Assembly (NCBI RefSeq): GCF_013122565.1
Contig: NZ_CP053258.1
From: Escherichia coli
Lineage (GTDB): Bacteria > Pseudomonadota > Gammaproteobacteria > Enterobacterales > Enterobacteriaceae
Strand: one strand, 5' to 3'
DNA: 64,000 nt
Shown: piece by piece, positions 13,592 to 63,816 of the stretch
Layout: the number at the start of each line of letters is the position of its first letter
Position numbering within the stretch: position 1 is the stretch's first letter
Program-made: the position numbers and the translations under genes
Notes under the pieces: generated by a model
Database searches by the model: none
The model's input: only the letters and a program-made list of their open reading frames with translations
What the model was told of the DNA's origin: nothing

Positions 13592-13624
13592 AGTGTTGCC
13601 TTTTTGTTATCAATAAAAAAGGCC

Positions 13625-13652
13625 CCCCGATTTGGGAGGCCTTATTGTTCGT
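13625..13652 (-). terminator. pheA attenuator terminator
   Basis: On minus strand AAGGCCTCCC-AAATC-GGGGGGCC followed by TTTTTT, between pheL stop (13690) and pheA start (13591). Confidence 0.65.
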
Positions 13653-13689
13653 CTTCGCATTCTGTTTCACACGACGAAACGCCTCCCAT

Positions 13690-13737
13690 TCAGGGGAAGG
13701 TAAAAAAGAATGCGAAGAAAAACGGTGTGTGTTTCAT
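13690..13737 (-). CDS. pheL: pheA operon leader peptide (15 aa, 7 Phe codons)
   Basis: Minus-strand ATG AAA CAC ACA CCG TTT TTC TTC GCA TTC TTT TTT ACC TTC CCC TGA = [15 protein letters not shown]. Below the ORF-track size cutoff. Confidence 0.8.
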   Translation of the reverse strand: [15 protein letters not shown]

Positions 13738-13790
13738 GTTTGTTTCCTTAAGTGACTTTAGTACAGTACCCGTACTGTTTTCACGCTGTC

Positions 13791-17033: not shown

Positions 17034-17095
17034 CCTAAAGAATCAAGACGATCCGGTACGCGTGATTTTCTTTTCACATTAATCTGGTCAATAAC

Positions 17096-17124
17096 CTTGA
17101 ATAATTGAGGGATGACCTCATTTA
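17096..17124 (+). promoter_or_regulatory. sigma32 heat-shock promoter of clpB
   Basis: CTTGAAT (17096-17102) and CCTCATTTA (17116-17124), 13-bp spacer, about 40 bp upstream of clpB ATG. Confidence 0.5.
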
Positions 17125-17162
17125 ATCTCCAGTAGCAACTTTGATCCGTTATGGGAGGAGTT

Positions 17163-19736
17163 ATGCGTCTGGATCGTCTTACTAATAAATTCCAGCTTGC
17201 TCTTGCCGATGCCCAATCACTTGCACTCGGGCACGACAACCAATTCATCGAACCACTTCATTTAATGAGCGCCCTGCTGAATCAGGAAGGGGGTTCGGTT
17301 AGTCCTTTGTTAACATCCGCTGGCATTAATGCTGGCCAGTTGCGCACAGATATCAATCAGGCATTAAATCGTTTACCGCAGGTTGAAGGTACTGGTGGTG
17401 ATGTCCAGCCATCACAAGATCTGGTGCGCGTTCTTAATCTTTGCGACAAGCTGGCGCAAAAACGTGGTGATAACTTTATCTCGTCAGAACTGTTCGTTCT
17501 GGCGGCACTTGAGTCTCGCGGCACGCTGGCCGACATCCTGAAAGCAGCAGGGGCGACCACCGCCAACATTACTCAAGCGATTGAACAAATGCGTGGAGGT
17601 GAAAGCGTGAACGATCAAGGTGCTGAAGACCAACGTCAGGCTTTGAAAAAATATACCATCGACCTTACCGAACGAGCCGAACAAGGCAAACTCGATCCGG
17701 TGATTGGTCGTGATGAAGAAATTCGCCGTACCATTCAGGTGCTGCAACGTCGTACTAAAAATAACCCGGTACTGATTGGTGAACCCGGCGTCGGTAAAAC
17801 TGCCATCGTTGAAGGTCTGGCGCAGCGTATTATCAACGGCGAAGTGCCGGAAGGGTTGAAAGGCCGCCGGGTACTGGCGCTGGATATGGGCGCGCTGGTG
17901 GCTGGGGCGAAATATCGCGGTGAGTTTGAAGAACGTTTAAAAGGCGTGCTTAACGATCTTGCCAAACAGGAAGGCAACGTCATCCTGTTTATCGACGAAT
18001 TACATACCATGGTCGGCGCGGGTAAAGCCGATGGCGCAATGGACGCCGGAAACATGCTGAAACCGGCGCTGGCGCGTGGTGAATTGCACTGCGTAGGTGC
18101 CACGACGCTTGACGAATATCGCCAGTACATCGAAAAAGATGCTGCGCTGGAACGTCGTTTCCAGAAAGTGTTTGTTGCCGAGCCTTCTGTTGAAGATACC
18201 ATTGCGATTCTGCGTGGCCTGAAAGAACGTTACGAATTGCACCACCATGTGCAAATTACTGACCCGGCAATTGTTGCAGCGGCGACGTTGTCTCATCGCT
18301 ACATTGCTGACCGTCAGCTGCCGGATAAAGCCATCGACCTGATCGATGAAGCAGCATCCAGCATTCGTATGCAGATTGACTCAAAACCAGAAGAACTCGA
18401 CCGACTCGATCGTCGTATCATCCAGCTCAAACTGGAACAACAGGCGTTAATGAAAGAGTCTGATGAAGCCAGTAAAAAACGCCTGGATATGCTCAACGAA
18501 GAACTGAGCGACAAAGAACGTCAGTACTCCGAGTTAGAAGAAGAGTGGAAAGCAGAGAAGGCATCGCTTTCTGGTACGCAGACCATTAAAGCGGAACTGG
18601 AACAGGCGAAAATCGCTATTGAACAGGCTCGCCGTGTGGGTGACCTGGCGCGGATGTCTGAACTGCAATACGGCAAAATCCCGGAACTGGAAAAGCAACT
18701 GGAAGCCGCAACGCAGCTCGAAGGCAAAACTATGCGTCTGTTGCGTAATAAAGTGACCGACGCCGAAATTGCTGAAGTGCTGGCGCGTTGGACGGGGATT
18801 CCGGTTTCTCGCATGATGGAAAGCGAGCGCGAAAAACTGCTGCGTATGGAGCAAGAACTGCACCATCGCGTAATTGGTCAGAACGAAGCGGTTGATGCGG
18901 TATCTAACGCTATTCGTCGTAGCCGTGCGGGGCTGGCGGATCCAAATCGCCCGATTGGTTCATTCCTGTTCCTCGGCCCAACTGGTGTGGGGAAAACAGA
19001 GCTTTGTAAGGCGCTGGCGAACTTTATGTTTGATAGCGACGAGGCGATGGTCCGTATCGATATGTCCGAGTTTATGGAGAAACACTCGGTGTCTCGTCTG
19101 GTTGGTGCGCCTCCGGGATATGTCGGTTATGAAGAAGGTGGCTACCTGACCGAAGCTGTGCGTCGTCGTCCGTATTCCGTCATCCTGCTGGATGAAGTGG
19201 AAAAAGCGCATCCGGATGTCTTCAATATTCTGTTGCAGGTACTGGATGATGGGCGTCTGACTGACGGGCAGGGGAGAACGGTCGACTTCCGTAATACGGT
19301 TGTCATTATGACCTCTAACCTCGGTTCCGATCTGATTCAGGAACGCTTCGGTGAACTGGATTATGCGCACATGAAAGAGCTGGTGCTCGGTGTGGTTAGC
19401 CATAACTTCCGTCCGGAATTCATTAACCGTATCGATGAAGTGGTGGTCTTCCATCCGCTGGGTGAACAGCACATTGCGTCGATTGCGCAGATTCAATTGA
19501 AACGTCTGTATAAACGTCTGGAAGAACGTGGTTATGAAATCCACATTTCTGACGAGGCGCTGAAACTGCTGAGCGAGAACGGTTACGATCCGGTCTATGG
19601 TGCACGTCCTCTGAAACGTGCAATTCAGCAGCAGATCGAAAACCCGCTGGCACAGCAAATACTGTCTGGTGAATTGGTTCCGGGTAAAGTGATTCGCCTG
19701 GAAGTTAATGAAGACCGGATTGTCGCCGTCCAGTAA
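17163..19736 (+). CDS. clpB: AAA+ disaggregase chaperone ClpB
   Basis: ORF track 17151..19736; ATG at 17163 after GGGAGGAG gives [19 protein letters not shown]..., 857 aa; two Walker A sites ([16 protein letters not shown]). Confidence 0.96.
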
Positions 19737-20179: not shown

Positions 20180-21721
<1,542 letters not shown>

Positions 21722-21806
21722 CCTTAAAGAAGCGTTCTTTGAAGTGCTCACACAGATTGTCTGATAGAAAGTGAAAAGCAAGGCGTCTTGCGAAGCAGAC
21801 TGATAC

Positions 21807-21882
21807 GTCCCCTTCGTCTAGAGGCCCAGGACACCGCCCTTTCACGGCGGTAACAGGGGTTCGAATCCCCTAGGGGACGCCA
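21807..21882 (+). tRNA. gltW: tRNA-Glu (anticodon UUC) in the 16S-23S spacer
   Basis: GTCCCCTTCGTCTAGAGGCCCAGGACACCGCCCTTTCACGGCGGTAACAGGGGTTCGAATCCCCTAGGGGACGCCA, 76 nt ending CCA. Confidence 0.95.
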
Positions 21883-22066
21883 CTTGCTGGTTTGTGAGTG
21901 AAAGTCACCTGCCTTAATATCTCAAAACTCATCTTCGGGTGATGTTTGAGATATTTGCTCTTTAAAAATCTGGATCAAGCTGAAAATTGAAACACTGAAC
22001 AACGAATGTTGTTCGTGAGTCTCTCAAATTTTCGCAACTCTGAAGTGAAACATCTTCGGGTTGTGA

Positions 22067-24970
<2,904 letters not shown>

Positions 24971-25063
24971 ACAACGCCGAAGCTGTTTTGGCGGATTGAG
25001 AGAAGATTTTCAGCCTGATACAGATTAAATCAGAACGCAGAAGCGGTCTGATAAAACAGAATT

Positions 25064-25183
25064 TGCCTGGCGGCCTTAGCGCGGTGGTCCCACCTGACCC
25101 CATGCCGAACTCAGAAGTGAAACGCCGTAGCGCCGATGGTAGTGTGGGGTCTCCCCATGCGAGAGTAGGGAACTGCCAGGCAT
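25064..25183 (+). rRNA. rrfG: 5S ribosomal RNA
   Basis: TGCCTGGCGGCCTTAGCGCGGTGGTCCCACCTGACCCCATGCCGAACTCAG...GGGAACTGCCAGGCAT, 120 nt. Confidence 0.96.
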
Positions 25184-36871: not shown

Positions 36872-36971
36872 TGCCGGATGCGGCGTGAACGCCTTATCCG
36901 GCCTACAAGATCGTGCAAATTCAATATATTGCATGAGCCACGTAGGCCTGATAAGCGTAGCGCATCAGGCA
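36872..36971. repeat. BIME: two inverted REP palindromic units
   Basis: TGCCGGATGCGGCGTGAACGCCTTATCCGGCCTACA and inverted GTAGGCCTGATAAGCGTAGCGCATCAGGCA. Confidence 0.7.
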
Positions 36972-42499: not shown

Positions 42500-43455
42500 T
42501 GAAGCAACTTTGGTTTGCCATGTCATTAGTGACAGGTAGCCTGTTATTCTCTGCTAACGCCTCGGCCACTCCCGCGTCCGGGGCGTTATTACAGCAGATG
42601 AACCTGGCCAGTCAGTCACTGAATTACGAGCTGTCATTCATCAGCATCAATAAACAGGGTGTTGAGTCTCTGCGTTATCGACATGCACGCCTCGATAACC
42701 GTCCTCTTGCACAATTGTTGCAAATGGATGGCCCGCGCCGGGAAGTGGTACAGCGCGGCAATGAAATCAGCTATTTTGAACCGGGACTTGAACCGTTCAC
42801 GCTTAATGGCGATTACATTGTTGATTCTCTGCCATCGCTCATCTATACCGATTTCAAACGCCTTTCTCCTTACTACGACTTTATCTCCGTCGGGCGCACG
42901 CGTATTGCTGATCGTCTTTGCGAAGTTATTCGCGTGGTTGCCCGAGATGGTACACGCTACAGCTACATCGTGTGGATGGACACCGAATCGAAATTACCGA
43001 TGAGGGTTGATCTCCTTGATCGCGATGGTGAAACGCTGGAACAATTTCGCGTGATTGCTTTTAATGTCAATCAGGATATCAGCAGCAGTATGCAGACGCT
43101 GGCGAAGGCAAATTTGCCGCCGTTGCTTTCTGTTCCTGTAGGTGAAAAAGCTAAATTCAGCTGGACGCCAACCTGGTTGCCACAGGGTTTTAGCGAAGTT
43201 TCCAGTAGTCGACGTCCGCTACCGACGATGGACAACATGCCTATCGAATCACGTCTCTATTCCGACGGATTATTCAGCTTCTCGGTAAACGTTAACCGCG
43301 CTACGCCATCGAGCACCGATCAGATGTTGCGCACCGGACGCAGAACCGTCAGTACAAGCGTACGTGATAACGCCGAAATCACCATTGTCGGTGAACTGCC
43401 GCCGCAAACGGCGAAACGCATTGCCGAGAATATTAAGTTCGGGGCAGCGCAATGA
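42499..43455 (+). CDS. rseB: sigma-E regulatory protein RseB
   Basis: 318-aa ORF with signal peptide MKQLWFAMSLVTGSLLFSANASA; start overlaps rseA stop. Confidence 0.95.
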   Translation: MKQLWFAMSLVTGSLLFSANASATPASGALLQQMNLASQSLNYELSFISINKQGVESLRYRHARLDNRPLAQLLQMDGPRREVVQRGNEISYFEPGLEPFTLNGDYIVDSLPSLIYTDFKRLSPYYDFISVGRTRIADRLCEVIRVVARDGTRYSYIVWMDTESKLPMRVDLLDRDGETLEQFRVIAFNVNQDISSSMQTLAKANLPPLLSVPVGEKAKFSWTPTWLPQGFSEVSSSRRPLPTMDNMPIESRLYSDGLFSFSVNVNRATPSSTDQMLRTGRRTVSTSVRDNAEITIVGELPPQTAKRIAENIKFGAAQ

Positions 43456-43931
43456 TCAAAGAGTGGGCTACCGTCGTCTCCTGGCAAAACGGGCAGGCGC
43501 TGGTCAGTTGTGATGTTAAAGCCTCATGCAGCAGCTGCGCTTCACGCGCCGGTTGCGGTAGCCGCGTGTTGAATAAACTTGGCCCGCAAACCACGCATAC
43601 CATTGTCGTACCCTGTGATGAGCCGTTAGTGCCGGGGCAAAAAGTGGAATTGGGGATCGCCGAAGGCAGCCTGCTTAGCTCCGCATTACTGGTTTATATG
43701 TCGCCGCTGGTGGGATTATTCCTCATCGCTTCGCTATTTCAGCTACTCTTTGCTTCTGACGTCGCAGCATTATGTGGTGCTGTCCTCGGCGGTATTAGCG
43801 GGTTCCTGATTGCGCGTGGCTACTCGCGTAAGTTTGCTGCCCGGGCAGAATGGCAACCGATCATCTTAAGCGTGGCATTGCCGCCTGGCCTTGTGCGATT
43901 TGAAACATCTTCGGAAGACGCGAGCCAGTGA
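43452..43931 (+). CDS. rseC: sigma-E regulatory protein RseC
   Basis: 159-aa ORF MIKEWATVVSWQNGQALVSCDVKASCSSC...; overlaps rseB stop. Confidence 0.93.
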   Translation: MIKEWATVVSWQNGQALVSCDVKASCSSCASRAGCGSRVLNKLGPQTTHTIVVPCDEPLVPGQKVELGIAEGSLLSSALLVYMSPLVGLFLIASLFQLLFASDVAALCGAVLGGISGFLIARGYSRKFAARAEWQPIILSVALPPGLVRFETSSEDASQ

Positions 43932-44128
43932 TTTCACTGGCTTTGTTGCATTTTGCATAACAAATGCGAGGACGTTTCCAGATACCACAATCCATACGGT
44001 ATGAACATTTCCTCGCCTCAATGTTGTAGTGTAGAATGCGGCGTTTCTATTAATACAGACGTTAAGCTCAGAACAGCGACTTCTAAAAGCCTGGTTAACC
44101 GGGCATTAAGGCACAATAATCATACTTT

Positions 44129-45928
<1,800 letters not shown>

Positions 45929-46970: not shown

Positions 46971-47062
46971 TGAGATAAATCTCCCGTGGCTAACGACATC
47001 CCCCGTCGTTGTGTATAGAATATTCCCCCGAAGTTTAAGGTTGGCACCTCCAGGTTGCCACG

Positions 47063-47156
47063 GCACACGAAACAGCGTTGGTCCCCATATACCGGTAAAC
47101 TGAAACTGCAGCGAAGCAGTTAGCAGAACCATGTATATCAGGTCTGTTTCGTGTGC
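47063..47156 (+). promoter_or_regulatory. rnc 5' leader stem-loop (candidate RNase III autoregulatory processing site)
   Basis: GCACACGAAACAG (47063-47075) pairs with CTGTTTCGTGTGC (47144-47156), a 13-bp long-range stem enclosing about 68 nt, just upstream of rnc ATG at 47190. Confidence 0.5.
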
Positions 47157-47159
47157 TGA

Positions 47160-48772
<1,613 letters not shown>

Positions 48773-50654: not shown

Positions 50655-50730
50655 TAAAGTAAAACCCCCGAACTGGTAAGGAACGGGGGTTTTACTTTAT
50701 TTTGTGCAGCACGCACCCTCAATGAGGATA
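50655..50730 (-). ncRNA. ohsC: candidate OhsC antitoxin sRNA (antisense regulator of shoB); boundaries approximate
   Basis: Minus-strand RNA from about 50725 to the terminator at 50661-50693 would carry the complement of 50704-50725, which is a near-copy of 50951-50972 in the shoB 5' UTR (19/22 identical; two differences become G-U pairs). Candidate -10 CATAAT (plus 50731-50736) and -35 TTGTAA (plus 50755-50760) on minus strand. Confidence 0.45.
50661..50699. terminator. bidirectional rho-independent terminator (acpS operon on plus strand; likely also ohsC on minus strand)
   Basis: AAAACCCCCG-13-nt loop-CGGGGGTTTT, flanked by T-runs on both strands. Confidence 0.6.
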
Positions 50731-55699: not shown

Positions 55700-58600
55700 A
55701 TGATGGAAATTCTGCGTGGTTCGCCTGCATTGTCGGCATTCCGAATCAACAAACTGCTGGCACGTTTTCAGGCTGCCAGGCTCCCGGTTCACAATATTTA
55801 CGCCGAGTATGTCCATTTTGCTGACCTCAATGCGCCGTTAAACGATGATGAGCACGCACAACTTGAACGCCTGCTGAAATATGGCCCGGCACTCGCCAGC
55901 CACGCCCCGCAAGGCAAACTCCTGCTGGTGACCCCGCGTCCTGGCACCATCTCTCCCTGGTCTTCGAAAGCGACCGATATTGCCCATAACTGCGGGCTAC
56001 AACAGGTAAACCGCCTTGAGCGCGGCGTTGCTTACTATATAGAAGCCGGTACGCTGACCAATGAACAATGGCAGCAGGTTACCGCTGAACTGCACGACCG
56101 CATGATGGAAACGGTCTTTTTTGCTTTAGATGATGCAGAGCAGTTGTTTGCCCACCATCAACCGACTCCGGTTACCAGCGTTGATTTGCTGGGGCAGGGC
56201 CGTCAGGCGCTGATCGACGCTAACCTGCGTCTTGGCCTGGCTCTGGCGGAAGATGAAATTGACTATCTGCAGGATGCTTTCACAAAGCTTGGTCGTAACC
56301 CGAACGACATCGAGCTGTATATGTTCGCTCAGGCGAACTCTGAGCACTGCCGCCACAAAATTTTTAATGCCGACTGGATTATCGACGGTGAACAGCAGCC
56401 GAAATCGCTGTTTAAGATGATCAAAAACACCTTCGAAACCACGCCGGATCACGTTCTCTCTGCTTATAAAGATAACGCCGCCGTAATGGAAGGTTCTGAA
56501 GTGGGCCGCTACTTTGCTGACCACGAAACGGGCCGCTACGATTTCCATCAGGAACCGGCGCATATCCTGATGAAAGTTGAAACTCACAACCACCCGACGG
56601 CGATTTCTCCGTGGCCGGGTGCGGCGACCGGTTCCGGCGGTGAAATCCGCGATGAAGGTGCCACCGGGCGCGGCGCAAAGCCGAAAGCGGGTCTGGTTGG
56701 TTTCTCCGTTTCCAACCTGCGAATTCCTGGCTTCGAACAGCCGTGGGAAGAAGATTTCGGTAAGCCTGAGCGCATTGTCACCGCGCTGGACATCATGACC
56801 GAAGGCCCGCTGGGCGGCGCGGCGTTTAACAACGAATTTGGTCGTCCGGCTCTGAATGGCTACTTCCGTACTTATGAAGAAAAAGTGAACAGCCACAACG
56901 GCGAAGAGCTGCGCGGTTATCACAAACCGATCATGCTGGCGGGCGGGATCGGCAACATTCGCGCCGATCACGTACAAAAAGGCGAGATCAACGTCGGTGC
57001 GAAGCTGGTCGTTCTCGGCGGCCCGGCAATGAACATCGGTCTTGGCGGCGGAGCGGCGTCTTCCATGGCGTCAGGTCAGTCTGATGCCGACCTCGACTTT
57101 GCTTCCGTACAGCGCGACAACCCGGAGATGGAGCGTCGCTGCCAGGAAGTGATCGACCGTTGCTGGCAGCTTGGTGATGCCAACCCAATCCTGTTTATCC
57201 ACGACGTCGGCGCTGGCGGTCTTTCTAACGCGATGCCGGAACTGGTGAGCGACGGCGGGCGCGGCGGTAAATTTGAACTGCGCGATATTCTAAGCGACGA
57301 ACCGGGCATGAGCCCGCTGGAAATCTGGTGTAACGAATCCCAGGAACGCTACGTGCTGGCGGTTGCTGCCGATCAATTACCGCTGTTTGACGAACTGTGT
57401 AAGCGTGAGCGCGCGCCATACGCGGTGATTGGTGAAGCGACCGAAGAACTGCATCTTTCTCTGCACGATCGTCATTTTGATAATCAGCCGATCGATCTGC
57501 CGCTGGACGTCCTGCTTGGTAAAACGCCGAAGATGACCCGCGATGTACAAACGCTGAAAGCGAAGGGCGATGCGCTGGTCCGTGAAGGGATCACCATTGC
57601 AGACGCGGTGAAACGCGTACTGCATCTGCCGACCGTGGCGGAGAAAACTTTCCTGGTGACCATCGGTGACCGCAGCGTAACCGGCATGGTGGCGCGCGAT
57701 CAGATGGTGGGGCCGTGGCAGGTGCCGGTCGCTAACTGCGCGGTCACTACCGCCAGCCTCGACAGCTACTACGGTGAAGCGATGGCGATTGGCGAGCGTG
57801 CGCCGGTTGCGCTGCTGGATTTCGCCGCCTCTGCCCGTCTGGCGGTCGGTGAAGCGTTAACCAATATTGCCGCAACACAGATTGGCGATATCAAACGCAT
57901 CAAACTTTCCGCCAACTGGATGGCGGCGGCAGGCCACCCTGGTGAAGATGCGGGCCTGTATGAAGCCGTTAAAGCCGTGGGCGAAGAGCTTTGTCCGGCG
58001 CTGGGCCTGACGATCCCGGTGGGTAAAGACTCCATGTCGATGAAAACCCGCTGGCAGGAAGGTAACGAAGAGCGTGAAATGACGTCGCCGCTGTCGCTGG
58101 TGATTTCTGCATTTGCCCGCGTGGAAGATGTACGTCACACCATCACGCCGCAGCTTTCTACCGAAGATAACGCACTGCTGCTGATTGATTTGGGCAAAGG
58201 CAATAACGCGCTGGGCGCAACGGCGCTGGCGCAGGTTTATCGTCAGCTTGGCGACAAACCGGCAGATGTACGCGATGTCGCGCAACTGAAAGGCTTCTAT
58301 GACGCGATTCAGGTGCTGGTTGCACAGCGTAAGCTGCTCGCATACCACGACCGCTCTGATGGCGGCCTGCTGGTAACGCTGGCGGAAATGGCCTTTGCTG
58401 GTCATTGCGGCATTGACGCAGATATCGCCTCTCTGGGTGACGATCGCCTGGCGGCGTTGTTTAACGAAGAACTGGGGGCGGTGATTCAGGTTCGTGCCGC
58501 TGACCGTGAAGCGGTCGAGTCCGTACTGGCACAGCATGGGCTTGCTGATTGCGTCCATTATGTTGGGCAGGCGGTTTCCGGTGACCGTTTTGTGATTACC

Positions 58601-59587
58601 GCCAATGGGCAGACTGTATTCAGCGAAAGCCGCACTACGTTGCGTGTCTGGTGGGCAGAAACTACCTGGCAGATGCAGCGCCTGCGTGACAACCCGGAGT
58701 GTGCCGATCAGGAGCATCAGGCGAAATATAACGACGCCGATCCGGGCCTGAATGTAAAACTGTCGTTCGATATCAACGAAGATGTGGCAGCACCGTATAT
58801 TGCCACTGGCGCACGTCCGAAAGTTGCCGTACTGCGTGAGCAGGGCGTGAACTCGCATGTTGAAATGGCGGCAGCTTTCCACCGTGCGGGCTTTGATGCT
58901 ATCGACGTGCATATGAGCGACCTGCTGACTGGACGCACGGGACTGGAGGATTTCCACGCCCTGGTCGCGTGCGGCGGTTTCTCCTACGGTGATGTACTGG
59001 GTGCCGGTGAAGGTTGGGCGAAGTCTATCCTGTTCAATGACCGTGTACGCGATGAGTTTGCAACCTTCTTCCATCGTCCGCAAACGCTGGCGCTGGGGGT
59101 ATGTAACGGTTGCCAGATGATGTCTAACCTGCGCGAACTGATCCCAGGTAGTGAGTTGTGGCCACGTTTTGTGCGCAATACCTCCGATCGCTTTGAAGCG
59201 CGTTTCAGCCTGGTTGAAGTAACCCAAAGCCCGTCTCTGCTGTTGCAGGGGATGGTGGGCTCGCAAATGCCGATTGCTGTCTCTCATGGTGAAGGGCGCG
59301 TGGAAGTGCGTGATGCGGCGCATCTGGCGGCACTGGAAAGCAAAGGGCTGGTGGCACTGCGCTATGTCGATAACTTCGGCAAAGTCACTGAAACCTACCC
59401 GGCTAACCCGAACGGTTCACCGAACGGTATTACGGCGGTTACGACTGAAAGCGGTCGAGTTACCATTATGATGCCGCACCCGGAACGTGTTTTCCGTACT
59501 GTCAGCAACTCCTGGCATCCGGAAAACTGGGGCGAGGATGGCCCATGGATGCGCATTTTCCGCAATGCGCGTAAGCAGTTGGGGTAA
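55700..59587 (+). CDS. purL: phosphoribosylformylglycinamidine synthase
   Basis: 1295-aa [32 protein letters not shown]... with C-terminal glutamine amidotransferase domain. Confidence 0.97.
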
Positions 59588-59610
59588 GTCGTCAGCCCAT
59601 TGGTTTTGCA

Positions 59611-59641
59611 GCCCGGATGAGGCATTCACGCCGCATCCGGC
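59611..59641. repeat. REP palindromic unit
   Basis: GCCCGGATGAGGCATTCACGCCGCATCCGGC, an imperfect palindrome typical of REP, just after purL stop. Confidence 0.6.
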
Positions 59642-59663
59642 ATTAAGCACCAACCACTATCAT

Positions 59664-59690
59664 AAGCTCCCAACTCCGGGAGCTTTTTTG
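59664..59690 (+). terminator. purL rho-independent terminator
   Basis: AAGCTCCC-AACTCC-GGGAGCTT followed by TTTT. Confidence 0.65.
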
Positions 59691-59804
59691 TGTCTGTAAA
59701 TCACGACAATGGGTGGTTTGCCGTGTCGCTTTTTGGTGACACATAACTGATTGATTTTACTGAAATCTAATAAGTTTATCTTAAGTTGTCTCTTTTTGGC
59801 GACA
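59691..59804. promoter_or_regulatory. three GlrR (QseF) activator binding sites, TGTC-N10-GACA
   Basis: TGTCtgtaaatcacGACA 59691-59708, TGTCgctttttggtGACA 59724-59741, TGTCtctttttggcGACA 59787-59804; upstream of the sigma54 promoter. Confidence 0.6.
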
Positions 59805-59892
59805 CAGTGGCTGAATTACATTCAAATAGCGAAGAAGCCATAAATCCCTCAAAGCAGCGTATAATCAGTACGTTACCAAACTATTTTCTTTA

Positions 59893-59912
59893 TTGGCACA
59901 GTTACTGCATAA
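59893..59912 (+). promoter_or_regulatory. glmY sigma54 promoter overlapping an extended -10 sigma70 element
   Basis: TTGGCAC-AGTTA-CTGCA matches sigma54 -24/-12 (TGGCAC-N5-TTGCA) with one mismatch; TGCATAAT (59905-59912) is an extended -10. Confidence 0.6.
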
Positions 59913-59920
59913 TAGTAAGC

Positions 59921-60104
59921 AGTGGCTCATTCACCGACTTATGTCAGCCCCTTCGGGACGTGCTACATAAAATTCGAATGACGCACAACAAGGTGCCTGC
60001 CGTCCAACTTCTGATATCAGCGTAGCTATATCAACCATCGGGCGAAACGTCGAGTTAGGCACCGCCTTATTCCATAACAAAGCCGGGTAATTCCCGGCTT
60101 TGTT
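59921..60104 (+). ncRNA. glmY: small RNA GlmY
   Basis: Predicted start about 12 nt after sigma54 -12 GC; ends at strong terminator ACAAAGCCGGG-TAATT-CCCGGCTTTGT (60077-60103) followed by TGTATCT; about 184 nt. 5' and 3' ends approximate. Confidence 0.7.
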
Positions 60105-60162
60105 GTATCTGAACTTCCCCTCGGTTAGCATCAGGCTATTCGCGTCTGACGAGAGTAACACC

Positions 60163-61590
60163 TTGAAACGCTGGCCCGTTTTTCCCCGCTCATTACGACA
60201 ACTGGTAATGCTGGCATTTTTGCTGATTCTGCTGCCCCTGTTGGTGCTGGCATGGCAAGCCTGGCAAAGCCTGAATGCGCTTAGCGACCAGGCGGCGCTG
60301 GTCAACCGCACCACGCTTATCGATGCCCGGCGCAGTGAAGCGATGACCAACGCGGCGCTGGAGATGGAGCGTAGCTACCGTCAGTATTGCGTGCTGGATG
60401 ACCCTACGCTTGCGAAGGTTTATCAAAGCCAGCGCAAGCGTTACAGCGAAATGCTCGATGCCCACGCAGGCGTACTGCCAGACGATAAACTTTACCAGGC
60501 ATTGCGTCAGGATTTGAACAATCTGGCCCAACTTCAGTGTAACAACAGTGGTCCCGATGCTGCCGCCGCCGCGCGTCTTGAAGCCTTTGCCAGTGCCAAT
60601 ACCGAAATGGTGCAGGCCACGCGCACAGTGGTGTTCTCTCGTGGGCAGCAACTTCAGCGTGAAATCGCCGAACGTGGGCAATATTTTGGTTGGCAATCGC
60701 TGGTGCTATTTCTGGTGAGTCTGGTGATGGTGCTACTTTTCACGCGGATGATTATCGGGCCGGTGAAAAATATTGAACGGATGATCAATCGGTTGGGGGA
60801 AGGGCGTTCTCTGGGCAATAGCGTTTCGTTCAGTGGACCGAGCGAGTTACGCTCGGTTGGGCAACGTATTCTTTGGTTAAGTGAGCGCCTGTCATGGCTG
60901 GAATCCCAACGCCATCAATTTTTAAGACATTTATCTCATGAATTAAAAACGCCACTGGCGAGTATGCGCGAGGGCACTGAATTACTGGCCGATCAGGTTG
61001 TCGGGCCGCTTACGCCAGAGCAAAAAGAGGTGGTGAGCATTCTTGATAGCAGCAGCCGCAATTTGCAAAAACTGATCGAACAACTGCTTGATTACAACCG
61101 TAAACAGGCGGACAGTGCGGTGGAACTGGAGAATGTTGAATTAGCACCGCTGGTGGAGACAGTGGTTTCTGCTCATAGCCTGCCCGCACGGGCTAAAATG
61201 ATGCATACCGACGTCGATCTCAAAGCAACAGCTTGCCTGGCGGAGCCAATGCTGCTGATGAGCGTACTGGATAATCTTTACTCCAATGCGGTGCACTACG
61301 GGGCTGAATCCGGTAACATTTGCCTTCGCAGCAGTTTACATGGTGCGCGGGTTTATATTGATGTCATCAATACAGGCACACCCATTCCGCAAGAGGAACG
61401 CGCCATGATCTTCGAACCCTTTTTTCAGGGAAGCCACCAGCGAAAAGGGGCGGTGAAGGGCAGCGGTCTGGGATTAAGCATTGCCAGGGATTGTATTCGC
61501 CGTATGCAAGGGGAACTGTATCTGGTCGACGAGAGCGGGCAAGACGTTTGTTTCCGCATTGAATTGCCGTCGTCGAAAAACACGAAATAA
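60163..61590 (+). CDS. glrK: sensor histidine kinase GlrK (QseE/YfhK)
   Basis: ORF track 60100..61590 begins inside the GlmY terminator; TTG at 60163 gives (M)KRWPVFPRSLRQLVMLAFLLILLP..., 475 aa; HAMP, H-box HELKTPL and ATPase domain. Confidence 0.85.
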   Translation: MKRWPVFPRSLRQLVMLAFLLILLPLLVLAWQAWQSLNALSDQAALVNRTTLIDARRSEAMTNAALEMERSYRQYCVLDDPTLAKVYQSQRKRYSEMLDAHAGVLPDDKLYQALRQDLNNLAQLQCNNSGPDAAAAARLEAFASANTEMVQATRTVVFSRGQQLQREIAERGQYFGWQSLVLFLVSLVMVLLFTRMIIGPVKNIERMINRLGEGRSLGNSVSFSGPSELRSVGQRILWLSERLSWLESQRHQFLRHLSHELKTPLASMREGTELLADQVVGPLTPEQKEVVSILDSSSRNLQKLIEQLLDYNRKQADSAVELENVELAPLVETVVSAHSLPARAKMMHTDVDLKATACLAEPMLLMSVLDNLYSNAVHYGAESGNICLRSSLHGARVYIDVINTGTPIPQEERAMIFEPFFQGSHQRKGAVKGSGLGLSIARDCIRRMQGELYLVDESGQDVCFRIELPSSKNTK

Positions 61591-61621
61591 TGCTAACAGC
61601 CTATCCCATCAGGCTATTTTA

Positions 61622-61714
61622 TTTGCCAGTTCGGCCCCGGGCAGTGCTCGAAATCCTCACGTACGACGTGTACGCTCTGGTTTCTCCGCACGGTCCATGT
61701 CCAAACTGCCTGCA
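61622..61714. repeat. GC-rich dispersed intergenic repeat (boxC-like), partner of 4915..5006
   Basis: See 4915..5006; lies between glrK stop and qseG start. Confidence 0.45.
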
Positions 61715-61754
61715 ACAATTATGCCCACTGGGAAAGGCTTTAAGTCTGGTGAAT

Positions 61755-62468
61755 ATGCGACACATTTTTCAACGATTATTGCCCCGACGGCTGTGGCTGG
61801 CAGGGCTGCCATGTCTGGCATTGCTGGGTTGCGTGCAGAGTCACAATAAGCCAGCCATTAATACGCCAGCAGAAGAAAAAATTCCGGTTTATCAACTGGC
61901 TGACTATCTTTCTACTGAATGTAGCGACATCTGGGCGCTGCAAGGTAAATCAACCGAAACCAATCCGCTTTACTGGCTGCGGGCGATGGATTGTGCTGAT
62001 CGTTTAATGCCTGCGCAGTCGCGTCAGCAAGCTCGCCAATATGACGACGGCAGCTGGCAAAATACCTTTAAACAAGGGATTTTGCTCGCCGACGCCAAAA
62101 TTACGCCGTATGAGCGCCGCCAGCTGGTCGCGCGTATTGATGAGTTAAGTACCGAGATCCCGGCACAGGTTCGCCCTCTGTATCAACTCTGGCGCGACGG
62201 TCAGGCGCTGCAACTGCAACTGGCGGAAGAGCGCCAACGCTACGGCAAGCTCCAGCAATCCAGCGACAGCGAGCTGGATACATTGCGCCAGCAACATCAC
62301 GTTCTACAGCAGCAACTGGAACTCACCACCCGCAAGCTGGAAAACCTGACCGATATTGAACGCCAGCTCTCGACCCGCAAACCGGCTGGAAATTTCTCGC
62401 CGGATACGCCGCACGAGGGTGAAAAGCCCGCGCCATCCACCCATGAGGTCACTCCTGATGAGCCATAA
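61755..62468 (+). CDS. qseG: outer-membrane lipoprotein QseG (YfhG)
   Basis: ORF track 61590..62468; ATG at 61755 gives MRHIFQRLLPRRLWLAGLPCLALLGCVQ... with lipobox, 237 aa. Confidence 0.85.
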   Translation: MRHIFQRLLPRRLWLAGLPCLALLGCVQSHNKPAINTPAEEKIPVYQLADYLSTECSDIWALQGKSTETNPLYWLRAMDCADRLMPAQSRQQARQYDDGSWQNTFKQGILLADAKITPYERRQLVARIDELSTEIPAQVRPLYQLWRDGQALQLQLAEERQRYGKLQQSSDSELDTLRQQHHVLQQQLELTTRKLENLTDIERQLSTRKPAGNFSPDTPHEGEKPAPSTHEVTPDEP

Positions 62469-63792
62469 ACCTGCGCATTTATTATTGGTCGATGACGATC
62501 CGGGATTGCTGAAACTGCTTGGCCTGCGCCTGACCAGCGAAGGCTACAGTGTGGTCACGGCGGAAAGTGGCGCTGAAGGATTACGGGTACTGAATCGCGA
62601 AAAAGTAGATTTAGTTATCAGCGACCTGCGGATGGATGAAATGGACGGTATGCAGCTGTTTGCTGAAATCCAGAAAGTGCAGCCGGGAATGCCGGTAATT
62701 ATCCTTACCGCGCATGGTTCTATTCCCGATGCCGTTGCAGCAACACAGCAGGGCGTTTTTAGTTTCCTCACCAAGCCTGTCGATAAAGACGCGCTATATC
62801 AGGCAATTGACGATGCGCTGGAACAATCCGCGCCAGCCACCGACGAACGCTGGCGCGAGGCGATTGTCACCCGCAGCCCGCTGATGCTGCGTTTGCTGGA
62901 ACAGGCGCGGCTGGTGGCGCAATCAGACGTCAGCGTTTTGATTAACGGCCAGAGCGGCACCGGGAAAGAGATTTTCGCCCAGGCTATCCACAACGCCAGC
63001 CCGCGCAATAGCAAACCATTTATTGCTATTAACTGTGGCGCATTGCCCGAGCAATTGCTGGAGTCGGAGCTGTTTGGTCATGCGCGTGGCGCGTTTACTG
63101 GCGCTGTCAGCAATCGCGAAGGTTTATTCCAGGCGGCGGAAGGCGGTACGCTATTTCTCGATGAGATTGGCGATATGCCCGCACCGTTGCAGGTCAAACT
63201 GCTGCGCGTGTTGCAGGAGCGTAAAGTGCGCCCGCTGGGCAGTAACCGCGATATTGATATCGACGTGCGGATTATTTCCGCCACTCACCGCGACCTGCCA
63301 AAAGCGATGGCGCGCGGGGAATTCCGTGAAGATCTCTATTACCGCCTCAACGTTGTCAGCCTGAAAATTCCGGCTCTGGCGGAGCGCACAGAAGATATTC
63401 CGCTACTGGCAAATCACCTGTTGCGCCAGGCGGCAGAGCGACATAAACCGTTTGTCCGCGCGTTCTCCACCGATGCGATGAAACGCCTGATGACTGCGAG
63501 CTGGCCGGGTAATGTACGCCAGTTGGTCAACGTGATTGAACAGTGCGTGGCGCTGACCTCATCTCCGGTGATTAGTGATGCATTAGTAGAGCAGGCGCTG
63601 GAGGGCGAAAACACGGCGCTGCCAACCTTTGTCGAAGCGCGTAATCAGTTTGAACTCAACTATTTGCGTAAGCTGCTGCAAATCACCAAAGGTAACGTCA
63701 CCCATGCGGCGAGAATGGCGGGGCGCAACCGGACAGAATTTTATAAACTGCTTTCCCGACACGAGCTGGATGCAAACGATTTCAAGGAATGA
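62458..63792 (+). CDS. glrR: sigma54-dependent response regulator GlrR (QseF/YfhA)
   Basis: ORF track 62356..63792; ATG at 62458 gives [20 protein letters not shown]..., 444 aa; receiver domain, AAA+ sigma54-interaction domain (GESGTGKE-like, GAFTGA), C-terminal HTH; overlaps qseG stop. Confidence 0.93.
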
Positions 63793-63816
63793 ATTGGCGT
63801 TATGTGTTACGTTTAG

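What the first reader, a model, noticed from the sequence alone, without database searches (positions are those of the whole stretch)
59691..60110. GlmY sRNA locus with sigma54 promoter and three GlrR sites, directly upstream of glrK
The purL-glrK gap (about 575 bp) has no protein gene but contains three evenly built TGTC-N10-GACA sites, a sigma54 -24/-12 element overlapped by an extended -10 (TGCATAAT), and a strong intrinsic terminator about 185 nt downstream. This is the architecture described for glmY, whose transcription is activated by the GlrK/GlrR two-component system encoded immediately downstream. The ORF track's ATG at 60100 for glrK sits inside the sRNA terminator, so the TTG at 60163 is the more plausible start.
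Basis: partly seen in the sequence, partly recalled or inferred. Interest (0 to 1): 0.5.

Follow-up and report, generated by a model that had tools for sequence, protein, structure and literature searches.

The report
glmY small RNA gene, already known

Summary
The finding is confirmed and already known. Window 59921-60104 (+) is glmY. It matches Rfam RF00128 at 147 bits (E 9e-34) and differs from E. coli K-12 glmY (b4441) at 1 of 184 nt. The upstream region has the published architecture:
- three exact TGTC-N10-GACA GlrR/QseF sites at -230, -197 and -134, the only three in the 64 kb;
- two IHF-like boxes;
- one sigma-54 element, TGGCAC-N5-CTGCA, identical to the ChIP-seq-mapped K-12 site;
- the overlapping sigma-70 -10 hexamer CATAAT.

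A 14-bp terminator hairpin (60074-60106) ends the RNA. glrK, qseG and glrR follow, as in K-12. Nine loci from other Enterobacterales genera show the same layout.

It aligns with a TTG or GTG start in all nine other genera, and it lies 25 bp downstream of the published qseEGF transcription start.

Two details were wrong. The codon at 60100 is TTG, not ATG. "Extended -10" is loose, because the TG directly abuts CATAAT.

The mechanism is taken from the literature: GlmY is a decoy RNA that sequesters RapZ, which protects GlmZ and so raises glmS expression. Nothing here is novel and interest is low.

The parts
59664..59685 (+). purL intrinsic terminator hairpin. Its T-tract runs directly into ABS1.
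   Evidence: Terminator scan: 8-bp stem with 5 GC pairs, then TTTTGTGTCT.
59691..59708 (.). GlrR/QseF activator binding site 1 (ABS1), TGTCTGTAAATCACGACA, -230 to -213 from glmY +1
   Evidence: Exact TGTC-N10-GACA match. Identical in K-12. Found at the same offset in Citrobacter, Kluyvera, Enterobacter and RIT714. Literature: PMC3045617.
59724..59741 (.). GlrR/QseF activator binding site 2 (ABS2), TGTCGCTTTTTGGTGACA, -197 to -180
   Evidence: The half-sites are invariant against K-12; two substitutions fall in the N10 spacer. Conserved across genera. Reported essential for the sigma-54 promoter in K-12 (PMC3045617).
59744..59756 (-). Distal IHF-like box, AATCAATCAGTTA (WATCARNNNNTTR), between ABS2 and ABS3
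   Evidence: 0 mismatches. The TTAACTnATTGAT block is conserved in 9 of the 10 loci; Rahnella has a variant. Binding of IHF and the need for the distal site are shown in K-12 (PMC3045617). The motif count alone is not above chance.
59787..59804 (.). GlrR/QseF activator binding site 3 (ABS3), TGTCTCTTTTTGGCGACA, -134 to -117
   Evidence: One spacer substitution against K-12. Most other genera carry TGTT...GACA at the same offset.
59863..59875 (+). Proximal IHF-like box, AATCAGTACGTTA, -58 to -46
   Evidence: it matches WATCARNNNNTTR exactly. A similar box sits at the same position in five of the nine other loci: Citrobacter, Kluyvera, Winslowiella, Enterobacter MAG and RIT714. Its function is inferred from PMC3045617.
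59894..59909 (+). Sigma-54 promoter, TGGCAC-N5-CTGCA (GG at 59895-59896, GC at 59907-59908)
   Evidence: The only match in the window. Identical to the K-12 sigma-54 ChIP-seq motif for glmY (PMC4591121). TGGCA-N6-xTGC is present at -27 or -26 in all 9 other genera.
59908..59913 (+). Sigma-70 -10 hexamer CATAAT, overlapping the sigma-54 -12 element; both promoters start at 59921
   Evidence: Sequence. The published -10 is CATAAT (PMC3045617). Conserved in Citrobacter, Kluyvera, Enterobacter MAG and RIT714.
59921..60104 (+). glmY primary transcript (184 nt). 59921-60068 is the 148-nt processed, active core.
   Evidence: RF00128 at 147.1 bits. 183/184 identical to K-12 b4441. Fold z = -5.2. 7 of 40 consensus pairs show compensatory changes across 10 genera. 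The 184-to-148 nt processing is from PMC4152352.
60074..60106 (+). glmY intrinsic terminator: 14-bp stem (ATAACAAAGCCGGG / CCCGGCTTTGTTGT) with loop TAATT
   Evidence: Fold. Identical in K-12. The simple terminator scan missed it because the T-tract is part of the extended stem.
60126..60131 (+). -10 hexamer TAGCAT of the qseEGF (glrK) sigma-70 promoter. The inferred start is 60138. The candidate -35, TTGTAT at 60103-60108, lies in the glmY terminator tail.
   Evidence: A TAGCAT block is conserved 35-40 nt upstream of the glrK start in 8 of 10 genera. [quoted passage not shown] The hexamer assignment is my inference.
60163..61590 (+). glrK/qseE sensor kinase CDS (475 aa), TTG start
   Evidence: Same start and length as K-12 NP_417051.2 and PGAP WP_001297612.1. 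The aligned start codon is TTG or GTG in all 10 loci. Histidine-kinase family matches.
61755..62468 (+). qseG lipoprotein CDS (237 aa)
   Evidence: NF007997 at 358 bits, cutoff 234. Same length as in K-12.
62458..63792 (+). glrR/qseF sigma-54-dependent response regulator CDS (444 aa)
   Evidence: NF011695 at 982 bits, cutoff 763, full length. The 11-nt overlap with qseG is the same as in K-12.

Best explanation
This is the glmY locus of an Escherichia coli-like genome, organised exactly as in E. coli K-12.

Shown here: the sequence elements, their positions, their conservation across genera, the RNA family match and the gene neighbourhood.

Taken from published K-12 work and not tested here: phosphorylated GlrR/QseF, encoded three genes downstream, binds the three TGTC-N10-GACA sites at -230, -197 and -134. 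IHF bends the DNA between them and the promoter. GlrR then activates sigma-54 RNA polymerase bound at TGGCAC-N5-CTGCA. A weak sigma-70 promoter, whose -10 hexamer CATAAT overlaps the sigma-54 -12 element, gives basal transcription from the same start (59921). Transcription ends at the hairpin 60074-60106, giving a 184-nt RNA that is trimmed to about 148 nt.

The processed GlmY does not base-pair with glmS. It mimics GlmZ and sequesters the RNase E adaptor RapZ. Full-length GlmZ therefore survives and activates glmS translation when glucosamine-6-phosphate is low. GlcN6P-free RapZ in turn stimulates GlrK/GlrR, which closes the loop.

glrK is a separate transcription unit. It starts from its own weak sigma-70 promoter at about 60138 and is translated from the TTG at 60163.
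For: - RNA family: RF00128 hit at 147 bits, E 9e-34, covering the full model.
- Identity to K-12: 183/184 nt identical to glmY b4441, with the same 58-nt spacing to glrK.
- The region is present once in 5425 of 5426 complete E. coli genomes.
- GlrR sites: three exact sites, the only ones in 64 kb.
- Sigma-54 element: a single match, identical to the ChIP-seq motif in K-12 (PMC4591121).
- Structure: stable fold with terminator, z = -5.2; compensatory changes in 7 of 40 pairs across 10 genera.
- Conservation: the same promoter layout and glrK synteny in 9 other Enterobacterales genera.
- Neighbours: QseG and GlrR equivalog matches above their curated cutoffs.
- Decoy rather than pairing RNA: the 3' linker lacks the glmS-pairing sequence. 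GlmY gives -5.1 kcal/mol (87/500 shuffles as good), against -19.0 kcal/mol (1/500) for K-12 GlmZ.
- Published mechanism: PMC3045617, PMC4152352, PMC6075780, PMC7073468.
Against: I found nothing substantive against it.

- No expression data exist for this particular strain. rpoN, rapZ, glmZ and glmS lie outside the window, so the rest of the circuit is assumed.
- The window differs from K-12 at two positions in the ABS2 spacer, one in the ABS3 spacer, one in the distal IHF box, one at -2, and one in an unpaired internal loop of the RNA (U54 against A54). Their quantitative effect is unknown.
- The simple terminator and sigma-70 scans did not list the glmY terminator or either sigma-70 promoter.
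Confidence: 0.97

Rival explanations
1. glmY is mainly the 5' leader of a glmY-glrK-qseG-glrR operon. Read-through of the hairpin at 60074-60106 would supply much of the glrK mRNA, so the sigma-54 promoter would autoregulate the two-component system.
For: The genes are co-oriented with only 58 nt between the RNA 3' end and glrK. A Proteus mirabilis study states that glmY-qseE-qseG-qseF form an operon (PMC8745638 abstract). The terminator T-tract (TTTGTTGT) is interrupted by G residues.
Against: In K-12, lacZ fusions with or without the whole glmY locus upstream gave indistinguishable qseE expression. qseF and qseG deletions had no effect. RT-PCR indicated that read-through 'does virtually not occur' (PMC6075780). 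The 14-bp hairpin is identical to that of K-12. A conserved TAGCAT -10 sits at the right distance from the published qseE transcription start.
Confidence: 0.08
2. The RNA is a GlmZ-type base-pairing sRNA that acts directly on glmS mRNA, not the decoy GlmY.
For: GlmY and GlmZ are homologous and belong to the same Rfam clan, CL00011. A lower-scoring overlapping clan match was suppressed.
Against: GlmY_tke1 won the clan competition at 147 bits. The locus sits next to purL and glrK, not next to hemY and aslA as K-12 glmZ does. The 12-nt linker has no significant complementarity to the glmS leader, whereas the GlmZ linker does.
Confidence: 0.01
3. The gap encodes a small protein: ORF 59786-60025 (+, 79 aa) or ORF 59931-60350 (-, 139 aa). 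The RNA-like features would then be incidental.
For: Both ORFs appear in the mechanical ORF list.
Against: Neither matches any NCBIfam family. Neither is annotated in K-12 or by PGAP. The + ORF runs across ABS3, the promoter and half of the RNA. The - ORF is antisense to glmY and to the glrK 5' end. The conservation pattern is that of an RNA with compensatory pair changes.
Confidence: 0.01

Closest known systems
E. coli K-12 glmY (b4441; SroF/Tke1; Rfam RF00128), with the dual sigma-54/sigma-70 promoter described by Reichenbach 2009 and Gopel 2011
   Same: 183/184 nt of the RNA. Identical sigma-54 element, -10 hexamer, terminator and glmY-glrK spacer. The three ABS half-sites and ABS1 are identical. 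Same offsets (-230, -197, -134) and same flanking genes.
   Different: About 20 substitutions in the 333 bp upstream of +1: two in the ABS2 spacer, one in the ABS3 spacer, one in the distal IHF box and one at -2. U54 replaces A54 in an unpaired loop of the RNA. There is an 18-bp REP-element indel at 59620-59637. No difference touches a defining feature.
GlmZ (RF00083 clan partner; K-12 b4456)
   Same: Homologous 5' stem-loops, and the central stem-loop that RapZ binds. Same Rfam clan.
   Different: GlmZ has a 23-nt linker that pairs with the glmS leader (-19.0 kcal/mol, 1/500 shuffles). The window RNA has a 12-nt linker with no such pairing. The genomic location differs. In E. coli, glmZ has a plain sigma-70 promoter (PMC3045617).
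glmY loci of other Enterobacterales (Citrobacter, Kluyvera, Enterobacter, Erwinia, Rahnella, Winslowiella)
   Same: RF00128 hits of 117-147 bits. The sigma-54 element is at -27 or -26. ABS-like palindromes sit at matching offsets, and glrK lies downstream with a TTG or GTG start.
   Different: ABS3, and sometimes ABS1, carries one mismatch (TGTT...GACA). The CATAAT -10 is absent in Rahnella, Winslowiella and E. mallotivora. The spacer to glrK is longer.

Membership tests
GlmY sRNA (Rfam RF00128) | Covariance-model score above the curated gathering threshold, over the full model | tested here: met
   147.1 bits against a gathering score of 33, model positions 1-163 of 163, no non-canonical pairs flagged.
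GlmY sRNA (Rfam RF00128) | Located immediately upstream of, and co-oriented with, glrK-qseG-glrR | tested here: met
   GlrK at 60163-61590, QseG (NF007997) and GlrR (NF011695), both above their cutoffs. Same order as K-12 and as 9 other genera. Synteny is described in PMC3045617.
GlmY sRNA (Rfam RF00128) | Conserved secondary structure supported by covariation | tested here: met
   MFE -67.2 kcal/mol, z = -5.2. 7 of 40 consensus pairs have compensatory double changes across 10 genera.
GlmY sRNA (Rfam RF00128) | No glmS-pairing sequence in the 3' single-stranded linker (decoy, not base-pairing RNA) | tested here: met
   Linker TTATTCCATAAC gives -5.1 kcal/mol, with 87/500 shuffles as good. The K-12 GlmZ linker gives -19.0 kcal/mol, 1/500. 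Caveat: the test covers the linker only, and the glmS leader used is from K-12.
GlmY sRNA (Rfam RF00128) | Binds RapZ and protects GlmZ; the 184-nt RNA is processed to 148 nt | not testable with these tools
   Known for K-12 (PMC4152352; PMC7073468). Here only the sequence identity of the RNA supports it.
GlrR/QseF-activated sigma-54 promoter | -24 GG / -12 GC element with TGGCAC-N5-TTGCW spacing, upstream of the start | tested here: met
   TGGCACAGTTACTGCA at 59894-59909, the only match in 64 kb. Identical to the K-12 ChIP-seq site (PMC4591121).
GlrR/QseF-activated sigma-54 promoter | Three TGTC-N10-GACA activator sites more than 100 bp upstream | tested here: met
   Sites at 59691, 59724 and 59787. 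Expected 0.93 per 64 kb, and all three fall within 114 bp. Consensus from PMC3045617.
GlrR/QseF-activated sigma-54 promoter | IHF site(s) between the activator sites and the promoter | tested here: inconclusive
   Two WATCARNNNNTTR matches at 59744-59756 and 59863-59875. The distal box is conserved across most genera, but the window-wide motif count is not above chance. IHF binding is shown only in K-12.
GlrR/QseF-activated sigma-54 promoter | Transcription depends on rpoN, glrR and glrK | not testable with these tools
   Requires reporter or Northern assays in mutants. Shown in K-12 (PMC3045617, PMC7073468).
GlmZ sRNA | Linker complementary to the glmS leader; location next to hemCDXY | tested here: not met
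   No linker complementarity. The locus lies between purL and glrK, whereas K-12 glmZ lies between aslA and hemY.

The most novel reading that the evidence does not exclude
The evidence does not exclude a strain-specific quantitative change. The lineage-specific substitutions are two in the ABS2 spacer, one in the ABS3 spacer, one in the distal IHF box and one at -2. Together with the fact that the candidate -35 of the glrK promoter lies inside the glmY terminator tail, they could alter GlrR/IHF affinity. They could also couple glmY termination to glrK promoter occupancy differently from K-12.
Probability: 0.05. Interest if true: 0.2.

Novelty: already known. Interest (0 to 1): 0.07.

Why it matters
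It matters only for annotation.

- It confirms that a 575-bp 'empty' gap holds a functional, well-characterised regulatory RNA gene. Routine PGAP annotation of E. coli genomes leaves this gene unlabelled.
- It confirms that the longest-ORF start for glrK (TTG at 60100, inside the sRNA terminator) is an over-extension.

GlmY itself is important biology: it controls cell-envelope precursor synthesis and is linked to virulence. All of that is already established.

Tried and rejected
111 of the 120 loci were chance matches in unrelated phyla. Only 9 Enterobacterales loci were usable; they were enough.
2. Whole-molecule RNA duplex prediction of GlmY or GlmZ against the glmS leader gave meaningless, very long interaction structures. 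I replaced it with a linker-only test using shuffles. A sliding-window scan still gave -26.7 kcal/mol for GlmY nt 111-136. That segment is GC-rich and buried in a stem, so I discounted it.
3. Counting IHF consensus matches across the window is uninformative: 56 found against 53 expected.
4. The simple promoter and terminator scan found the purL terminator. It missed the glmY terminator and both weak sigma-70 promoters.
5. I considered and rejected the two mechanical ORFs in the gap, which have no family matches.
6. I considered and rejected GlmZ identity.

Full report
**Observation**

The sequence was read directly. purL, the 1295-aa ORF at 55700-59587, ends at 59587. The next long ORF, glrK, begins mechanically at TTG 60100.

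The pattern TGTC-N10-GACA occurs exactly three times in the whole 64-kb window, at 59691-59708, 59724-59741 and 59787-59804. Dinucleotide shuffles give 0.93 matches per window. By my own rough estimate, all three falling within 114 bp by chance is of order 1e-6. The centre-to-centre spacings are 33 and 63 bp, about 3 and 6 helical turns.

The sigma-54 pattern TGGCAC-N5-YTGCW occurs once, at 59894-59909. The hexamer CATAAT (59908-59913) overlaps its -12 GC.

Folding 59921-60107 as RNA gives -67.2 kcal/mol, z = -5.2, with 0 of 200 shuffles as stable. It ends in a 14-bp hairpin at 60074-60106.

**Identity**

Rfam places GlmY_tke1 (RF00128) at 59921-60068. The score is 147.1 bits against a gathering score of 33, E 8.8e-34, covering the full model with no non-canonical pairs flagged.

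In E. coli K-12 MG1655 the same arrangement is annotated as purL, glmY (b4441, 184 nt), glrK, qseG, glrR, glnB. The alignment to K-12 shows:
- The RNA differs at one position. U54 replaces A54, which is unpaired in the fold.
- The promoter core, the terminator and the 58-nt spacer to glrK are identical.
- About 20 substitutions and an 18-bp indel fall in the 333 bp upstream of +1.
- None of these touches a TGTC or GACA half-site.

The gap sequence is present once in 5425 of 5426 complete E. coli genomes, at 90-99% identity. PGAP does not annotate the sRNA there.

The downstream proteins match the NCBIfam equivalogs for QseG (358 bits, cutoff 234) and GlrR (982 bits, cutoff 763). GlrK matches histidine-kinase models. 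The two mechanical ORFs inside the gap match nothing.

**Related loci**

One scan of genome contigs with a 14-base GlmY 5' pattern mostly returned chance matches. It did bring in nine Enterobacterales loci: Rahnella, Citrobacter, Kluyvera, two Enterobacter, two Erwinia, Winslowiella and strain RIT714. All nine carry RF00128 hits of 117-147 bits. Further observations on these loci:
- In every one, a TGGCA-N6-xTGC element sits at -27 or -26.
- Palindromes matching TGTC-N10-GACA, exactly or with one mismatch, sit at about -230, -197 and -134, shifted by a few bases in Erwinia, Rahnella and Winslowiella. E. rhapontici lacks a detectable ABS1, and the third site of E. mallotivora is doubtful.
- An IHF-like block TTAACTnATTGAT follows ABS2 in most loci.
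- glrK lies downstream.
- A consensus fold of the ten RNAs has 40 pairs, 7 of them with compensatory double changes.

**glrK start**

The codon at 60100 is TTG, not ATG, and it lies in the 3' arm of the terminator hairpin. Four observations favour the TTG at 60163:
- It gives the 475-aa protein annotated in K-12 (NP_417051.2) and by PGAP.
- In the ten aligned loci the homologous codon is TTG (8) or GTG (2). In seven of the nine other loci it is the first possible in-frame start.
- The peptide (M)K-x-W..FPRSLRQLV is conserved from that codon on.
- The alternative ATG 15 codons downstream is absent in Kluyvera.

A GAGAG Shine-Dalgarno-like motif lies 7 nt upstream.

[quoted passage not shown] They also report that read-through from glmY virtually does not occur (PMC6075780). 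That places the start at 60138, downstream of 60100. A TAGCAT block at 60126-60131, conserved in 8 of 10 genera at a fixed distance from the start codon, fits the -10 of that promoter. This hexamer assignment is my inference.

**Mechanism**

The mechanism comes from the literature and was not tested here.
- GlrR binds the three TGTC-N10-GACA motifs and activates the sigma-54 promoter. ABS2 and ABS3 are essential and ABS1 is dispensable.
- IHF is required, and so is the distal IHF site.
- The sigma-70 promoter (CATAAT) overlaps the sigma-54 promoter and starts at the same nucleotide (PMC3045617).
- Sigma-54 ChIP-seq in K-12 maps a site with the motif TTGGCACAGTTACTGCA at glmY, identical to window 59893-59909 (PMC4591121).
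- GlmY is 184 nt and is processed to a 148-nt active form. The Rfam hit here is also exactly 148 nt long.
- GlmY is not a base-pairing RNA. It sequesters RapZ and so protects GlmZ, which activates glmS (PMC4152352).
- GlcN6P-free RapZ stimulates QseE/QseF and hence glmY transcription (PMC7073468).

One feature I could test. The single-stranded 3' linker of the window RNA (12 nt) has no significant complementarity to the K-12 glmS leader: -5.1 kcal/mol, with 87/500 shuffles as good. The K-12 GlmZ linker pairs at -19.0 kcal/mol, 1/500, at the published site.

**Rivals**
- Operon or leader reading. Terminator read-through feeding glrK is reported for Proteus (PMC8745638). K-12 reporter and RT-PCR data argue against it, and the terminator here is identical to that of K-12.
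- GlmZ identity. Rejected on Rfam clan competition, location and the missing pairing linker.
- Coding ORFs in the gap. Rejected on absence of homology and on the RNA-type conservation pattern.

**Verdict**

The locus is a textbook, experimentally dissected system, so the novelty class is 'already known' and interest is low.

In that sequence the TG abuts the CATAAT hexamer instead of being separated from it by one base.

Noticed in passing
window 59608-59645: A REP-like palindrome (GCCCGGATGAGGCATTCACGCCGCATCCGGC) lies between the purL stop codon and the purL terminator. K-12 lacks 18 bp of it (window 59620-59637), while E. coli ST866 has the full copy.
   Followed up: partly
window 60103-60138: A TAGCAT block (60126-60131) is conserved between the glmY terminator and glrK in 8 of 10 genera. 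It fits the -10 of the published qseEGF sigma-70 promoter, whose start is 25 bp upstream of the start codon, i.e. 60138. The best -35 candidate, TTGTAT at 60103-60108, overlaps the glmY terminator tail.
   Followed up: partly
window 55700-63800: No complete E. coli genome among 5426 is more than 98.4% identical over this 8.1-kb core-genome stretch, and none exceeds 98.1% over the glmY gap. The source lineage seems to lie outside the RefSeq complete-genome set. It could be a Shigella or a divergent Escherichia lineage, but I did not determine which.
   Followed up: no
window 61590-62468: The mechanical ORF for qseG (292 aa, ATG at 61590) is also over-extended. The 237-aa form starting at 61755 matches the QseG equivalog and the K-12 annotation.
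   Followed up: partly
L111 (Erwinia rhapontici), -15..-8 relative to glmY +1: A perfect extended -10, TGCTATAAT, overlaps the sigma-54 -12 element. Gopel 2011 does not list Erwinia among the genera with an overlapping sigma-70 promoter.
   Followed up: no
window 13613-13738, 17044-17182, 20180-25181, 36907-36949, 43416-44247, 47030-47244, 50656-50720: Other Rfam gathering-level hits in the window: Phe leader (-), RyfD, a complete rRNA operon with a spacer tRNA and StyR-44, ES036, AsrC antisense RNA (-), rncO, and OhsC (-).
   Followed up: no
window 59691-59700: ABS1 starts 6 nt after the purL terminator stem. The terminator's T-tract (TTTTGTGTCT) runs into the TGTC half-site.
   Followed up: no
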